64,000 bases of DNA from Eledone cirrhosa (Eukaryota): the NCBI GenBank assembly GCA_964016885.1, contig OZ024742.1:341372001-341436000 (forward strand). Reading direction: 5' to 3'. Position numbers and translations under genes: made by a program. Shown here in pieces: positions 1 to 30,153 of this stretch. Each line of letters opens with the position of its first letter. Position 1 is the first letter of the stretch. Below the pieces are notes generated by a model. The model had not been told where the DNA came from. It did no database searches and saw only the letters and a program-made list of their open reading frames with translations.

Positions 1-342
1 ACAATCAATTAAACAGAATTAGGTGTAAAATAAACTAGGAGAAAAGAAAATACATTTATTTACCTCGACCATGGTTTCGTCCGAATTTTGAGATTTCCAA
101 TAACTTCGGAAACTCGAGCATCGGACTCTTCAGGAGTTTGCTCTAATCTAGACAATAAATTTTCCAAAGTGATCGCGCCAAGAATACATTCAAAAATGGC
201 TAAGAATCGTGACGTAGCAGCGGTCAGGTTGGAAGGAGTGTGGTAGTTGCTTACGGCTGGTGGCTCTTTGCTAGAAAACACAGCACAATACAGCCAAATT
301 TGTATCTCAACCTAATGGGAGATTATTACATATAAAGGTTTA
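1..342 (-). mobile_element. Penelope-like terminal repeat (pLTR) fragment carrying a hammerhead ribozyme
   Basis: Contains a complete type I HHR (64-136) and ends at a (TA)n tract at ~343; cut by the window edge. Confidence 0.6.
64..136 (-). ncRNA. Type I hammerhead ribozyme, canonical core
   Basis: Minus strand reads ctc-CTGAAGA-gtccga...tcggac-GAAA-CCATGG-TC-gag. Stem I is 3 bp; stem II is 6 bp plus the extension gagtttcc/ggaaatctc; helix III is palindromic; cleavage triplet is GUC. Confidence 0.85.
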
Positions 343-486
343 CATATATATATATATACATATATACATATACGTGTTTTGCAACGGATCACTTTGTGGT
401 TTCGATTTTTTATATGGTTAATTATGCTAATTGGGAGAGGAAATGGTATATATTTTATCTGGTGATTCTATAGACATGTTTTATGA

Positions 487-551
487 TATATATATATATA
501 TATATATATATATATATATATATATATATATATATATATATATATATATAT
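487..551. repeat. (TA)n microsatellite
   Basis: Direct reading. Confidence 0.98.
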
Positions 552-1180
552 GAATAAAGTTAGTCCTTCATCAGTGATCTTCCAACCATCATTGGTATTT
601 CATCGCTTTAAAGACCATATACCTCCGGGTGGTGCGAGCAACGGCTAAAAAAAGTCGTTGGGACACGTAAATAAAGGGGACACGAGTGTAAACAAACAAA
701 GATGGTGAAGCAACGAAAAGTGAGGAAGAAGGAGACAAGTCCCAAATTTCTATGAATATAAATTCGGTGAAATCGTGAACGAGAGAGAATAAAGACCATC
801 AAATCTGGTTGGAATGTGAGCAAGGAAGGAATTCCGTACAGGTCTAACGGGAGGAAGAAGGGATCTAGTCTGTGATTTCCGTGAACGTAAGTTCTGTGAA
901 ATCGTAGACGAGAAGAGAAAAAAAGCGACCTGCCAGACCAAGGGTGCGAAAGAAAAGAATTACGCACAGGTCAAACGGGAAGAAGGATGAGGAGGAGAGG
1001 TAGTAACAGAGAATGACTGAGTGAAGGGTGAGGAAGAGGCTAACAGAGAGAGTGACTGCTAGAGAGGGTAAAGATACAGAGAAAGAGAAAGCAGTAAGAA
1101 CGAAATAGACGGGTCACAGCGGGGGAAAAAATATGTGTAAATATGAGAATAAACGTGCCGCGTAGTTGCTAATGGGTTAC
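552..1180 (-). mobile_element. Probable PLE terminal/UTR fragment, same family as 9755-9998
   Basis: Bounded by (TA)n on both sides. Minus strand gtctttaaagcgatgaaataccaatgat...CTGATGAaggac...tttattcata aligns with plus-strand 9874-9960. The HHR core is truncated by the TA tract. Confidence 0.5.
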
Positions 1181-1304
1181 ATATATATATATATATATAT
1201 ATATCTATATATATATATATATATGTGTGTGTGTGTGTGTGTGTGTGTGTGTGTCTGTGTGTGTATATATATATCTGTCTAATTAGCTATTTATCTCACT
1301 CTCT

Positions 1305-26030: not shown

Positions 26031-26190
26031 AATTATTGTTGTTGGTGTTGTTGGTGTTTTTGTTGTCTTGGTGTTTTCATTGTGGTTGCTGTTGTATATA
26101 TATATATATATATATATATATACAACAGCAACCAACCACAATAAAAACACCAAGACAACAAAAACACCAACAACAGCAACAACAATAATT
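26031..26190. repeat. Palindrome of (GTT)/(AAC)-rich arms centred on (TA)n
   Basis: 26031-26095 is the near reverse complement of 26122-26190. Confidence 0.9.
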
Positions 26191-27603
26191 ATATATATAT
26201 ATATATATATATATATATATATATATATATATATATATATATATATATATATATATGTATATATACATGTATATATATATATATATATATATATACATAT
26301 ACATATATATATATATATATATATATATATATATATATATATATATATGCATATATATAGATATACGTAAAAATGTATATATATATATATATATATATAT
26401 ATATATATATTAGAAAGTGAGGCTTTTTTTACAAAATGAAAAATAACCGAGGTGTCCTACACGAGTGAAAGTATAAAGAAAAAGAGATGAAATCGAAAAT
26501 GCAACAGAAGTCTTATTTTTTTTTTAAATATATATATTTATTTGGTTCCTTTACCGGTTTTGCAGTTCTTCTGCTTTTCAAAAGGTGAGTTGAGATGGAG
26601 GGTCTGTGGTTTTTCTCACATCTAGTTGGTCTCTGAATGTTACTTGTTTTATATGGAAAAAGTGGCTCGAAATTCCAGGTTTTTCGAGAAGTAATTTGAT
26701 TGGTTTGTCAATAATTATAATAAATTTCGCCCCAGTTCGCGTTACAATAGTTCTTCAAATAAGAGAGGAGGGTTATCACAGGTTGTTTTTTCATATATGA
26801 GTGTTTGAATTTCTTTTTACTTGAAAAAAGGAGGCTCACGGAGGCTTTTTTTTGGTTGGTTATAATTGAAATTTGGCTGTCACGTGAACAAGTTTTTATT
26901 ACATTTTTGCGCCCTTATTTGGAAAACTATTCTGTAGTCTTTATAGTGAATGTTATGACAATGGAGAGATAGTGGTCAAGAGAAAAGGGATTGGGAGAAA
27001 TGTTCTGGTTCAGTGAATATGGCCAGCTCGCCGGGGTGTCAGAGTTCAGATTTTCTATTGAGACTGAAGATATGTATGTTTATTTGTGTGCTTGTGTGTG
27101 TGTGTGTGTGTGTGTGTGTGTGTATTGGAAGATGATTCTATTAGCAGAGATGGGGGAGGGAGTTGTGTGTGTGTGTATATGGGTGTTATGTGTGTGTGCG
27201 AGTATGTTAAGATGGAGAGAATATATATTTTGTGTGTGTGTATATATATATGTGTAGGAAAGTGGTTCTATTAGTAGAAATGGGGAGGGAGTTGTAGGTG
27301 TGGGGGTTGTTATGTGTGTGTATGGGTGTTATGTGTGTGGGAGTATGGTTAGCATGTTAAGATGAAGAGAATATATATATATATATATATATTGTGTGTG
27401 TGTGTATGTGTGTGTGTAGGAAAGTGATTCCTTTAGTAGGAATATTTTTGAATGAACATATTTTCCTTACTTTTTCGTGTTTGCTGTTGTATTGCCAGTG
27501 CAAACGTATGTTAAGGTTTATTTAGTTCGGGTTTTTATTTTCTAAAGTAGAAGGTGTTATGTGTGTGTGTGTATGTCATATTGTGGTGTTGACATAATGT
27601 ATA

Positions 27604-29899
27604 TTAAACCTTATTTAATGTTGGTCTATATTTTTGAATAAACATATTTTCCTTATTTATTCGCATTTGTTCTGTTGTATTGTTAGCGCAAAGGGAAGAC
27701 TTGGAATTTGGGTGTCTTATTACTTGCGCAAATGTCTAGATGTGCACTTAGTGGTATCTGTCTCGTGGTTGGATCTCGTAATTGTTGGCGATGAACTGTC
27801 ATTCTGTTTCTGAGTGTGAGTTTAGTTTGTCCTATATAATCTTCATTGCATCCTTTACATTTAATGGCATAAATTAGATTTTTTGATGAGCAAGTGAAGT
27901 GATTTTTTACAGTAAAATTTTGTCCTGATTTAAATGTATACGTGTTGCCTTCAATGAGGTGAGTGCAGGTTCCATAATTAGAGCGACCACATTTTTTGAT
28001 ACTTGGTTGTGGGTTTGTGGTAGGTAATTTGGCATTGGTGAGTAATGTTTTCAGTGATTTTGGTTGTCTTTTGCTTTTGATTATTTTGTGTGTTTCAAGG
28101 GCTTTTTTCATTCTTGGGTTTTGTTTTAGTAGTGGGATGCTATTGTGAATAGTGTTGTAAGCTTCCGCATTTCTTGGGTTGTGTGTTGAGATATATGATA
28201 GAATATTGGACGTACCTTGAATTTGTTTCTGTTTCCGTAATTCATCAATGCCTATTGCTTTAGCCCTTTCTATTCCCTTATTTATTAGTAATAGTGGGTA
28301 CTCTCTCTCAAGTAGAATTTCCTTTAATTCTTGAAGTCTTTTATTTCGCGTTTCATAATTGGAGACAATTGTGCAAATTCTTCTTGCTAGGTTAAAAGGA
28401 ATGTTCGTCTTCGTGTGCTTTGGATGGTTGGAGGTGAATAGCAGATATTGTTTGGAATCTGTTGGTTTGTAGTGTATGTCAGTTTCGATATTTGTGTCTT
28501 TTTTTGTGATTAAGATGTCCAGAAATGGGAGTTGATCTTGGCTGTATTCCATTGTGAATTGGATGTGGTTATTGATGCCGTTTATTAAGTTTTTGAAATC
28601 CTTCAGTTGGTCGAGTGTGTGGGACCAAAGAATGAGGCAATCGTCCAAGTAGCGTTACCAATTCTCTGATAAATATTTGTGGAAGTTCAATCCGTATTTT
28701 GATTTGGACTGTTCATATATCTGGACTTCTAAGTATGCCATGACTAAGTTGGCATAAGTTGGAGCGGCTTTTGTGCCCATCGCAGTCCCCGATATTTGCT
28801 TGTAAGTATTGCCATCGAAATCAAAAAAGTTGTTCTGTAGGATGAATTTTAATCCCTCGGTGATGAAGCTTTTTTCTATTCTGTCAGGTATCTCATTGGG
28901 ATATTTCTCTAGCCAGAATCCTATTGCTTCTAGTCCGTATTGGTGTGGGATCGTTGTGTAGAGATTCACTACATCGAAAGACACAATAATAGTGTCGTTG
29001 TTGACATGTTTGGGGAGGTGGTTTAAGAGGTCCAGATCGTCTCTTACAAGGCTTGGTATGTGTTTCAGTATTGGTTTCAGTAGTATGTCTATAAAGTTGC
29101 TCAATCTGTGTGTTTCACATTGTGGGCCCGCTACAATTGGTCTTAATTTAAGGTCTGTGGGGTATTGTGTGTTCACGCAGGCTGAGCTGGATTGTTTACA
29201 GGCATCGTTAATTATTTTACATTTGTGGATCTTCGGAAGTCCGTAAAGGTTGCTGGTTTTATATTCAAAATTTGTTAAATAATCGCGTTCCTTTTTAGTT
29301 AGGTCTTCTGGTATCGATAAATCAGTGTTTAATCTGGTCATTATTTTTGATTGCTGGTAGTTTTTTACTCTTTCATAGTAATTAGTATTTTGTAAGAGAG
29401 AGAACATAGAATTTTTATATTTTTCAGCCTCCATAATGACAACAGTACTTCCCTTGTCCGCTTCCTTAATTACAATGTCCGTATTGTTTTTTAGTTCATG
29501 GATAATCTCCCATTCCCTTCGACTTGTGTTGGGTTTGGGTTTAGGTTGCGGTAGTTCATGGTATGGGAAGGTAGCTATGTGGTCACAAAATTTGTCCAGA
29601 ACTCTGTTTCTACCTTTTGTTGGGTTGTAGCTGCTTTTATTCCGTACAATTGATTCGTCGTTATTCTCCTTGTCAAAGAATTCCTCTGTGAGACATAATT
29701 TTCTACAGAAGTGTGAGATATCGTCATTTATCTCGTTGGGGTTAGGGTATTGTGGTGTTGGTGTGAATTTCAGACCTTTGGAGAGAATTTTTACTTGTTG
29801 GGCTGAGAGGTTTGTATTTGAGATGTTAATTATTTTCGGTTTTTCAAAATCGGTTTGTGCCACCGGGTGTCGTGAGTGCTGTAGCCTTGGTCTAAAAAA
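27604..29899 (-). pseudogene. PLE reverse transcriptase-GIY-YIG endonuclease polyprotein with one nonsense and one frameshift lesion
   Basis: LSKGLKFTPTP, IKEADKG, YGLPKIHK, LRPIV, SFDVVNLYT, GTAMGTKAAPTYANL, W*RYLDDC, LPFLDI, SNHP, NLIYAIKCKGC...YIGQT. TAA at 28655-28657; frameshift at ~27690 before ANNTTEQMRINKENMFIQKYRPTLNKV. Confidence 0.95.
29893..29899 (-). promoter_or_regulatory. Putative -1 ribosomal frameshift slippery heptamer U_UUU_UUA
   Basis: Upstream frame ...AAT CAT TTT TTA; a -1 slip enters the RT frame TTT TTT AGA CCA ... GTG GCA CAA ACC GAT. Confidence 0.65.
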
Positions 29900-29971
29900 T
29901 GATTTTTCTGGAATGTTTTTTCATTGGCATTATTATATCTAATGGTATTTCCCCTGTTGTTGTGTGGTCTT

Positions 29972-30153
29972 GTATATATATATATATATATATATATATA
30001 TATATATATATATATATATAAAATATATATTTATATATATATATATATATATATATATATATATATATATATATATATATATATATATATATATATATAT
30101 ATATATATATATATATATATATATATGTATTTATATATATATATATATATATA
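29972..30153. repeat. (TA)n microsatellite
   Basis: Direct reading. Confidence 0.98.

What the first reader, a model, noticed from the sequence alone, without database searches (positions are those of the whole stretch)
1..30000. Ribozyme-dense Penelope ecosystem: autonomous PLEs plus several families of small HHR-bearing passengers, all in (TA)n
Seen: at least eight distinct type I hammerhead motifs in 27 kb (64, 1305, 1554 x4, 5976, 15203/19538/19638/26548, 16300, 19880, 25791/25624). Almost all have a short palindromic helix III (CCATGG, CGCG, CCGG, TGCGCA, TATA). Nearly every carrier is delimited by (TA)n, and the three RT-bearing PLEs all lie on the minus strand. Known: PLE terminal repeats carry minimal HHRs thought to cleave as dimers, and non-LTR retrozymes are proposed to be mobilised by PLEs. 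Inference: a TA-targeting retro-mobilome in which GIY-YIG/RT enzymes spread multiple self-cleaving RNA families. An ORF-based annotation misses all of it.
Basis: partly seen in the sequence, partly recalled or inferred. Interest (0 to 1): 0.8.

Follow-up and report, generated by a model that had tools for sequence, protein, structure and literature searches.

The report
Scrambled hammerhead in Penelope-spread retrozymes
This stretch is a pile-up of Penelope retrotransposon ends and non-coding tandem repeats inserted into TA microsatellites, and one repeat family carries all the conserved letters of a hammerhead ribozyme in a scrambled (non-circularly permuted) order, predicted to self-cleave and so far reported only outside the genomes of known organisms.

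Summary
The hammerhead (HHR) motifs are real: 16 descriptor hits against 0.25 in shuffles. Four of its eight families (15203 group, 16300, 19880, 25791) are not passengers. They are terminal repeats of Neptune- and Hydra-like Penelope elements (PLEs), whose window copies are broken. Three (64, 1305, 1554) are 312-655 nt non-coding tandem retrozymes. 5976 is a decayed relic away from (TA)n. The retrozymes show the PLE 'tail' footprint: one long and one short 3' end in 15 of 15 head-to-head insertions. This much extends known biology.

(1) The 615-bp array (10950-15112) has a large U3:A8 HHR with a closed helix III in each of 7 units. (2) The 634-nt unit at 548-1184 carries an HHR core in S-G-C (non-circular) order, with stem II replaced by a four-way junction. 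18 of 31 pairs covary across subfamilies. Such permutations were reported from metatranscriptome/metagenome searches, with none in genomes of known organisms. Cleavage is untested (about 0.7). An earlier scan note describes a similar TA-targeting repeat without a ribozyme in another genome; none describes this motif.

The parts
548..1184 (-).
   Evidence: Unit period 634; 3112 first-look candidates, best copies 96-97% identical; two 3' ends about 42 nt apart; longest ATG ORF 63 aa
563..664 (-). S-G-C-order (non-circularly permuted) hammerhead-like motif: GUAUA^ site with predicted cut between 618 and 617; stem I strands 617-612 and 580-575; GAAA 601-598; CUGAUGA 574-568; four-way junction in place of stem II
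   Evidence: one mismatch at 629 in the helix III extension relative to other copies
9755..9997 (+). 3' part of sister subfamily S4 (550-nt unit) with a second S-G-C motif (9824-9927); core decayed here (CUGGUGA)
10950..15112 (-).
   Evidence: dispersed 99-100% identical arrays with a fixed 3' end and variable 5' truncation; covariation with sisters K2/K3
1..480 (-). Family A: about 650-nt tandem non-coding unit (continues left of the window); type I HHR core at 133, helix III CCAUGG
1305..1352 (-). Family B: 48-nt fragment of a 316-nt tandem unit, sister of family C but with a different HHR; stem I cut off in this copy
   Evidence: B-C 74% identical over two blocks outside the HHR
1369..2382 (.). 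Family C: head-to-head insertion of the 312-nt retrozyme (one minus arm, 2.7 plus units), 4 HHR cores (1540-, 1560+, 1872+, 2184+); outer ends at unit positions 187 and 214 (27-nt tail)
2405..2930 (-).
   Evidence: RT/EN in sense upstream in 14 of 30 loci
5940..6080 (+). Family D: old decayed minimal-HHR repeat (core 5979-5985), not TA-flanked here
   Evidence: Other copies 68-88% identical
15112..15460 (.). Family E: inverted pair of pLTR fragments of the Neptune-like PLE-2, U3:A8 HHR core at 15236-
19477..19812 (.). Family E: second inverted pLTR pair, cores 19571- and 19642+
16140..19392 (-). PLE-1, Hydra-like, 5'-truncated and frameshifted; pLTR HHR core at 16347
   Evidence: intact 832-aa sister family with DKT, CxCX5C, CxxC and CxH motifs
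19813..22377 (-). PLE-3, Hydra-like, degraded; pLTR HHR core at 19925 (U3.G8)
25497..25895 (.). Family H: inverted pair of pLTR fragments of another Hydra-like PLE; cores 25686- and 25799+
   Evidence: L064: RT, EN, 3' UTR and HHR contiguous
26410..29973 (-). PLE-2, Neptune-like (DKG, CX4CxxC linker, CCHH), 5'-truncated with an in-frame stop; its pLTR is family E (core 26582, G12 lost)

Best explanation
The region is a cluster of independent insertions into (TA)n: truncated Penelope-like elements plus non-coding tandem repeats (retrozymes) that are likely copied by PLE enzymes, and the 634-nt repeat carries a hammerhead core in scrambled S-G-C order that is predicted to self-cleave at 618/617. 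Shown: Neptune- and Hydra-like PLE families with intact ORF copies exist in the genome. HHR families E, H, J, 16300 and 19880 are their terminal repeats. Families A, B, C, K and I are ORF-less tandem units of 312-655 nt. Both classes end in (TA)n at two alternative 3' sites. For E, H, J, C and I, head-to-head insertions use one site at each end. Inferred: tandem retrozyme transcripts are cut to unit length (possibly circularised) by their ribozyme. A PLE RT-EN dimer nicks both strands of a (TA)n tract and starts reverse transcription at the two internal sites, giving tandem or inverted 5'-truncated arrays that regenerate TA-flanked targets. In family I the cleavage block comes first, then GAAA, then CUGAUGA. 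The strand after A9 and the strand before G12 pair with a third, upstream strand, making a four-way junction that would stack in place of stem II.
For: Motif excess over shuffles. PLE linkage. Intact enzymes: many 775-aa and 832-aa open frames. TA adjacency of 3' alignment ends: E 38/42, H 39/48, J 32/43, against SINE 3' ends 29/135 and 9.8% of random 20-mers. K: 10 of 10 visible array ends. I: 30 of 30 loci by eye. Tail footprint in head-to-head insertions: long+short in E 11/12, H 17/18, J 13/15, C 11/11, I 4/4. PMC11167929 calls this tail shared by and unique to PLEs. S-G-C motif: RNAalifold unprompted finds stem III, its extension and the 5' hairpin, with two-sided changes in 12 of 18 pairs. 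The named six-helix structure has 94.8% of cells paired and 18 of 31 pairs with two-sided changes, against 29-43% paired for slid controls. In 199 parsed copies (of 253 hits) stem III pairs hold in 181-192 and stem I pairs in 182-196; U16.1 in 189; H17 is A127/C65/U5/G2; N7 is the one free core position (U171/A25).
Against: No RNA evidence: no run on record as RNA holds the stretch, and only contigs could be laid. A direct stem II is absent (3 of 199 copies), unlike published type-SGC ribozymes. The minimum-free-energy fold of 563-674 is a different, pseudoknot-free structure and no better than shuffles (z 0.25). The structure was derived from the same sequences on which it was counted, relatedness is not controlled, and the core counts are partly selected because the parse was anchored on them. 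In the 2026 preprint only 1 of 9 retrozyme dimers cleaved in vitro. In PMC11167929 the PLE HHR needed protein and was dispensable for insertion. No sequence homology ties a retrozyme to one particular PLE.
Confidence: 0.7

Rival explanations
1. The insertion model holds, but the 563-664 motif is a non-catalytic structure (a PLE-protein binding or priming element, or a ribozyme relic) that merely keeps hammerhead-like words.
For: No canonical stem II; MFE fold not hammerhead-like; the motif lies about 15-120 nt upstream of the short 3' end, where an RT recognition element would sit; HHR cleavage is dispensable for PAc insertion in vitro (PMC11167929).
Against: All 13 core positions sit in their hammerhead relation to covarying stems I and III. 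N7 and H17 vary exactly as hammerheads allow across subfamilies. Every other tandem family examined (A, B, C, K) has an HHR, and none other was found in the family I unit.
Confidence: 0.2
2. All small HHR carriers are just 5'-truncated PLE ends, and the tandem arrays are satellites amplified at DNA level, with no separate passenger families.
For: True for E, H, J, 16300 and 19880. The 2026 preprint proposes local amplification of pLTR-derived units.
Against: A, B, C, K and I are preceded by their own 3' ends rather than by an ORF. They are dispersed on many contigs as 96-100% identical arrays with fixed 3' ends and ragged 5' ends, and C and I show the tail pattern.
Confidence: 0.07
3. The retrozymes are moved by a non-PLE retroelement that primes on microsatellites (for example an RTE-type LINE), and share TA tracts with PLEs only by target preference.
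For: An RTE-like fragment lies at about 22430-23250 (my reading of the sequence, recalled, not tested). Retrozyme ends have TA-rich microhomology.
Against: Two internal start sites, one per end of inverted insertions, is the PLE pattern (PMC8557442 Fig. 2 legend; PMC11167929) and is the same in C and I as in bona fide pLTRs.
Confidence: 0.03

Closest known systems
Type-SGC non-circularly permuted hammerheads (HRIMA-1; Eckert et al. 2023, PMC10085705)
   Same: 5'-to-3' order S, G, C; all core nucleotides; pseudoknotted stems I and III; short linker (UAA + 1 nt) between the stem I strand and the strand before GAAA
   Different: No direct stem II: both of its strands pair with an upstream strand split by a hairpin (four-way junction). 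Helix III is extended. It occurs in thousands of genomic repeat copies of an animal, whereas the paper states that no such RNAs were found in genomes of known organisms.
Non-LTR retrozymes of animals (PMC7229834; bioRxiv 10.64898/2026.07.22.740005)
   Same: ORF-less tandem units of a few hundred nt, one ribozyme per unit, dispersed monomers and multimers, co-occurring with PLEs
   Different: Unusual ribozymes (U3:A8 with a 77-nt arm II and closed helix III; S-G-C order; HHR swap between sisters B and C). Strict (TA)n targeting. A tail/inversion footprint, which the passages and parts I read do not report for retrozymes.
PLE pLTR minimal HHRs (Cervera & de la Pena 2014, PMC4209133)
   Same: Type I, palindromic helix III, U3-A8 variant, opposite-strand pairs 100-700 bp apart, mostly truncated copies
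   Different: Nothing essential for E, H, 16300, 19880 and D; J has a longer arm II and a 4-bp closed helix III.
Hydra and Neptune PLE clades (Craig et al. 2021, PMC8557442)
   Same: C-terminal GIY-YIG; Hydra: DKT, CxCX5C, CxxC/CxH, no CCHH, (TA)n insertion; Neptune: DKG, CX2-5CxxC linker, CCHH; tandem/inverted copies with a tail
   Different: Tails here are 27-85 nt. Full-length PLE-2 has an upstream 409-codon ORF overlapping the RT frame.

Membership tests
Type-SGC hammerhead ribozyme | Blocks in S-G-C order with CUGAnGA, GAAA and NUH | tested here: met
   1 descriptor hit in the window against 0.015 in 200 shuffles; core kept in 189-197 of 199 parsed copies per position (parse anchored on the core)
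Type-SGC hammerhead ribozyme | Covarying stems I and III | tested here: met
   two-sided changes in 5 of 6 stem I pairs and 2 of 5 stem III pairs
Type-SGC hammerhead ribozyme | Stem II formed directly between the strand after A9 and the strand before G12 | tested here: not met
   3 of 199 copies; replaced by helices P0, P1 and P2 (81%, 98%, 98% of cells paired)
Type-SGC hammerhead ribozyme | Site-specific self-cleavage | not testable with these tools
   Needs in vitro transcription
Type I hammerhead (families A, B, C, E, H, J, K, 16300) | Stem I-CUGAnGA/UUGAnAA-stem II-GAAA-stem III-UH | tested here: met
   K/K2/K3: 4 of 14 pairs with two-sided changes, 99.3% of cells paired; K folds to the HHR shape as its MFE
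Non-LTR retrozyme (A, B, C, K, I) | ORF-less tandem unit with a ribozyme motif in each unit | tested here: met
   Periods 651-655, 316, 312, 615, 634; longest ATG ORF 34-63 aa for C, K and I (A and B not ORF-scanned)
Non-LTR retrozyme (A, B, C, K, I) | Expressed as unit-length circular RNA | not testable with these tools
   No RNA holder listed
EN+ PLE, Hydra clade (PLE-1, PLE-3, H, J) | DKT, CxCX5C linker, CxxC/CxH, no CCHH, C-terminal GIY-YIG | tested here: met
   on an intact sister family (80% DNA identity to PLE-1; RWR in place of RWK); for the window copies; H and J by tblastn to PLE-1 only; no phylogeny built
EN+ PLE, Neptune clade (PLE-2) | DKG, CX2-5CxxC linker, CCHH, C-terminal GIY-YIG | tested here: met
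   Motifs read in the 775-aa frame; no phylogeny built
Autonomous PLE (window copies) | Intact full-length ORF | tested here: not met
   intact copies exist elsewhere in the genome
PLE-type insertion | Tandem/inverted copies with a tail at one end | tested here: met

The most novel reading that the evidence does not exclude
An animal genome encodes, in thousands of copies and at least six abundant subfamilies, an active hammerhead of a new topology (S-G-C order with a four-way-junction stem II). It serves as the processing ribozyme of circular-RNA retrozymes that hijack a dimeric Penelope RT-endonuclease. This would be the first non-circularly permuted ribozyme in a cellular genome, and it would show that the 'blocks cannot be interrupted' rule for hammerheads does not hold.
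Probability: 0.55. Interest if true: 0.88.

Novelty: new variant of a known kind. Interest (0 to 1): 0.74.

Why it matters
If it cleaves, the family I motif extends the hammerhead fold to a topology that type I-III descriptors and Rfam cannot see. Ribozyme and retrozyme counts in animal genomes would then be underestimates, and a natural, covariation-rich set becomes available for structure work. Independently of cleavage, the long+short end pattern gives direct footprint evidence for the long-proposed but unproven idea that PLE enzymes mobilise retrozymes. It also supplies exact start sites and young, intact enzyme families for a test.

Tried and rejected
Rfam at E<=10 on the window and at E<=1 on eight loci of the I/S/K families gave no ribozyme family for I, S or K; the hits were microsatellite or hairpin artefacts. 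A twister or hairpin-ribozyme reading of the family I motif (features recalled from memory) was dropped: no Rfam hit, and the CUGAnGA/GAAA/NUH pattern fits a hammerhead. A kink-turn in the helix III extension was dropped because subfamily S4 lacks the GA. A conventional type I HHR across tandem units of family I is impossible because S-G-C is not a rotation of C-G-S. RNA expression: no RNA holder listed; contigs of runs X1, X2, X3, X5 and X7 cannot show ends, though X3, X5 and X7 hold the family I region, so it is not an assembly artefact. A degenerate pattern for the S-G-C motif found 0 matches in metagenome contigs (uninformative for animal repeats). No PLE ORF was found contiguous with and upstream of any S-G-C subfamily or of family D. 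The all-minus orientation of three PLEs has a chance of 1 in 4 and means nothing. Lunse et al. 2017 could not be read and may describe further PLE HHR variants. Supplements of PMC10085705 were not opened and may bear on where type-SGC variants occur.
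Full report
SETTING. The window is G000:C3:341372001-341436000 of a 3.0-Gb genome. Its first 30 kb is nested repeats separated by (TA)n; the rest is an AAC-rich satellite. SINEs and repeat style look to me like a cephalopod mollusc (recalled, not tested).

OBSERVATION. A type I descriptor (C3:G8 or U3:A8 core, palindromic helix III) finds 8 motifs in 1-30200 against 0.017 in 60 shuffles. 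Allowing long arms gives 16 against 0.25 in 100 shuffles. Three PLE ORFs are present on the minus strand; all are 5'-truncated and carry stops or frameshifts.

WHICH CARRIERS ARE PLE ENDS. I searched the genome with each family. Only the best 40 candidates are scored and up to 30 loci returned, and first-look candidate numbers are not copy numbers. Family E (15203/19538/19638/26548; 1324 candidates) continues into the 3' UTR and ORF of PLE-2, for example L003 (window 26394-28095, 96%) and L008. All 4 longer stretches fetched around 775-codon frames carry this HHR in their terminal repeat. PLE-2 has DKG, a CX4CxxC linker and CCHH, so it is Neptune-like by the motifs in PMC8557442. Many of 124 scored copies are 97-99% identical with a 775-codon open frame. 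Family H (25624/25791) follows RT, EN and 3' UTR in sense in L064 (1 of 30 loci) and has inverted ORF pieces upstream in 5 more. PLE-1, PLE-3, H and J resemble the Hydra clade: an intact 832-aa sister family shows DKT, CxCX5C, CxxC and CxH. PMC8557442 (sections 11, 12 and passages read) reports that almost all Hydra families insert into (TA)n. Family D (5976) is an old minimal-HHR repeat (68-88% identity).

WHICH ARE PASSENGERS. A (period 651-655), B (316), C (312), K (615) and I (634) are tandem units whose upstream neighbour is their own 3' end. C, K and I have no ATG ORF above 63 aa. C and K are very young (best copies 98-100% identical) and occur as dispersed arrays with fixed 3' and ragged 5' ends. 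B and C share 74% identity outside the ribozyme but carry different HHRs.

INSERTION FOOTPRINT. 3' ends run into (TA)n: E 38/42, H 39/48 and J 32/43 alignment ends, against 29/135 SINE 3' ends and 9.8% of random 20-mers in the same loci. K shows this at 10 of 10 visible array ends and I at 30 of 30 loci by eye. Each family has two preferred 3' ends, 27-85 nt apart. In head-to-head insertions with both outer ends in TA, one end is long and one short: E 11/12, H 17/18, J 13/15, C 11/11, I 4/4 (by eye 16 of 17 for C). A, B, S3 and S4 were not classified, and K arrays were mostly one-armed. PMC8557442 describes the tail as often present at one end only. PMC11167929 (parts 1-2 of 4 read) traces it to two internal RT start sites and calls it unique to PLEs. 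Non-coding C and I therefore carry the PLE mechanism's footprint; I infer mobilisation in trans by a dimeric PLE enzyme. The 2026 preprint (parts 1-3 of 5 read) argues a PLE origin from co-occurrence and pLTR similarity only. A term search in PMC7229834 found no 'inverted'.

MISSED 1: FAMILY K. Each 615-nt unit has ACUCG-UUGACAA, a 77-nt arm II, GAAA, a closed helix III (CCC/GGG plus an inner hairpin), GUC^ and CGGGU. The 145-nt segment folds to this shape as its MFE (z -1.86, 9 of 200 shuffles as good). Sisters K2 and K3 (about 600-nt units; 3763 and 3329 candidates) keep the core and compensate in all three stems (4 of 14 pairs, 10 sequences). U3-A8 cores are described for Schistosoma PLE minimal HHRs (PMC4209133, parts 1-2 of 4 read; the only paper for 'hammerhead'+'U3-A8'). 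The large monomer-type form is a variant.

MISSED 2: FAMILY I. The unit at 548-1184 has no type I HHR. Iterated profile searches of the held loci revealed diverged sisters, and five further searches showed that they are abundant families of their own (S2-S6: 1849, 1187, 1833, 1458 and 1348 candidates; units of 550-580 nt where measured). They share, 5' to 3': P0a; hairpin P1; P2a; P4a; helix III strand GGUA-U-H^; stem I strand; UAA; P2b; GAAA; helix III strand; P4b; stem I strand; CUGAnGA; P0b. That is cleavage block, GAAA block, CUGAnGA block: the S-G-C order of PMC10085705 (sections 7, 13, 14, 18 part 1 and passages read; supplements not opened). RNAalifold alone recovers P1, P4 and stem III with two-sided changes in 12 of 18 pairs. 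The full pseudoknotted structure on 13 natural copies gives 94.8% paired cells and 18 of 31 pairs with two-sided changes in all six helices. No shuffle of 500 reached this, and slid controls gave 29-43% (structure derived from these sequences, relatedness not controlled). In 199 distinct parsed copies of 253 hits (54 hits were duplicates, partial or unparsed), parsed on the core and linker only, stem III pairs hold in 181-192 and stem I pairs in 182-196, with U-A/G-C/A-U exchange at position 1.2. H17 is A, C or U in 197, and N7 is the only freely varying core base. A generic S-G-C descriptor hits the window once (cut after 618, minus) against 0.015 in 200 shuffles.

THE DEPARTURE. The strands after A9 and before G12 do not pair with each other (3 of 199). 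Each pairs with the 5' strand, on either side of hairpin P1, giving a four-way junction. P0a abuts P1 with no spacer, as expected for a continuous strand of a stacked junction (inference). The motif therefore fails one defining feature of published type-SGC ribozymes and is filed as a variant that likely works like one. Against activity: the pseudoknot-free MFE is different and unremarkable, there are no RNA data, and predicted retrozymes often fail in vitro (1 of 9 in the preprint).

NOVELTY. PLE HHRs, U3-A8, TA bias, tails and retrozymes are published. [quoted passage not shown] Searches for 'type-SGC'+'hammerhead' (1 paper), 'non-circular permutation'+'hammerhead'+'retrotransposon' (3 listed; passages of PMC13725137 read; PMC10761166 seen as listing only), 'hammerhead'+'four-way junction'+'stem II'+'permut' (1 review, listing only), 'retrozymes'+'cephalopod' and 'Penelope'+'hammerhead'+'octopus' showed no genomic S-G-C ribozyme. 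Passages of PMC10162972 showed no such variant. The library lacks most subscription papers, including Lunse et al. 2017. The scan's own index has no look-alike of the motif.

VERDICT. The value lies in the tail footprint on retrozymes and in the permuted, four-way-junction hammerhead candidate. Interest 0.74; new variant of a known kind.

Noticed in passing
L234:1853-5316, L235:1708-5171: Full-length Neptune-like PLE-2 has an upstream 409-codon ORF overlapping the 775-codon RT-EN frame. The RT frame has no ATG before about residue 160. A UUU-UAG run in the third frame and the overlap suggest recoding or splicing; the exact frame relation was not worked out.
   Followed up: partly
L476-L479, just upstream of the 832-aa ORF: The young intact Hydra-like family has an HHR-like motif with core CCGAAGA (U4 to C), palindrome CAGCUG and a 7-bp stem II.
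   Followed up: no
window 10950 and 26410: The K retrozyme and the Neptune PLE-2 pLTR end in the same CUUUCUA|AUAUAU and both have U3:A8 cores; a hint, untested, that PLE-2 is K's helper.
   Followed up: no
families C and K, position 10.1-11.1: The first stem II pair is a conserved mismatch (U.U in C, C.A in K/K2/K3) instead of the usual G-C.
   Followed up: partly
loci L001-L171: At least ten further HHR families appear as neighbours in TA tracts, so the genome-wide diversity is much larger than the window shows.
   Followed up: no
window 4694-4830: Inverted pair of 3'-end fragments of another TA-targeting family, with no ribozyme in view.
   Followed up: partly
window 8680-9746: Element with 132-bp inverted arms and 34-bp subterminal repeats, DNA-transposon-like; the S4 insertion lies at its right end.
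   Followed up: no
window 22430-23900: RTE-like RT fragment followed by a mariner-like fragment (read from the sequence, names recalled).
   Followed up: no
window 30340-64000: 34-kb AAC/AGT-rich satellite with open low-complexity frames of up to about 3000 codons.
   Followed up: no
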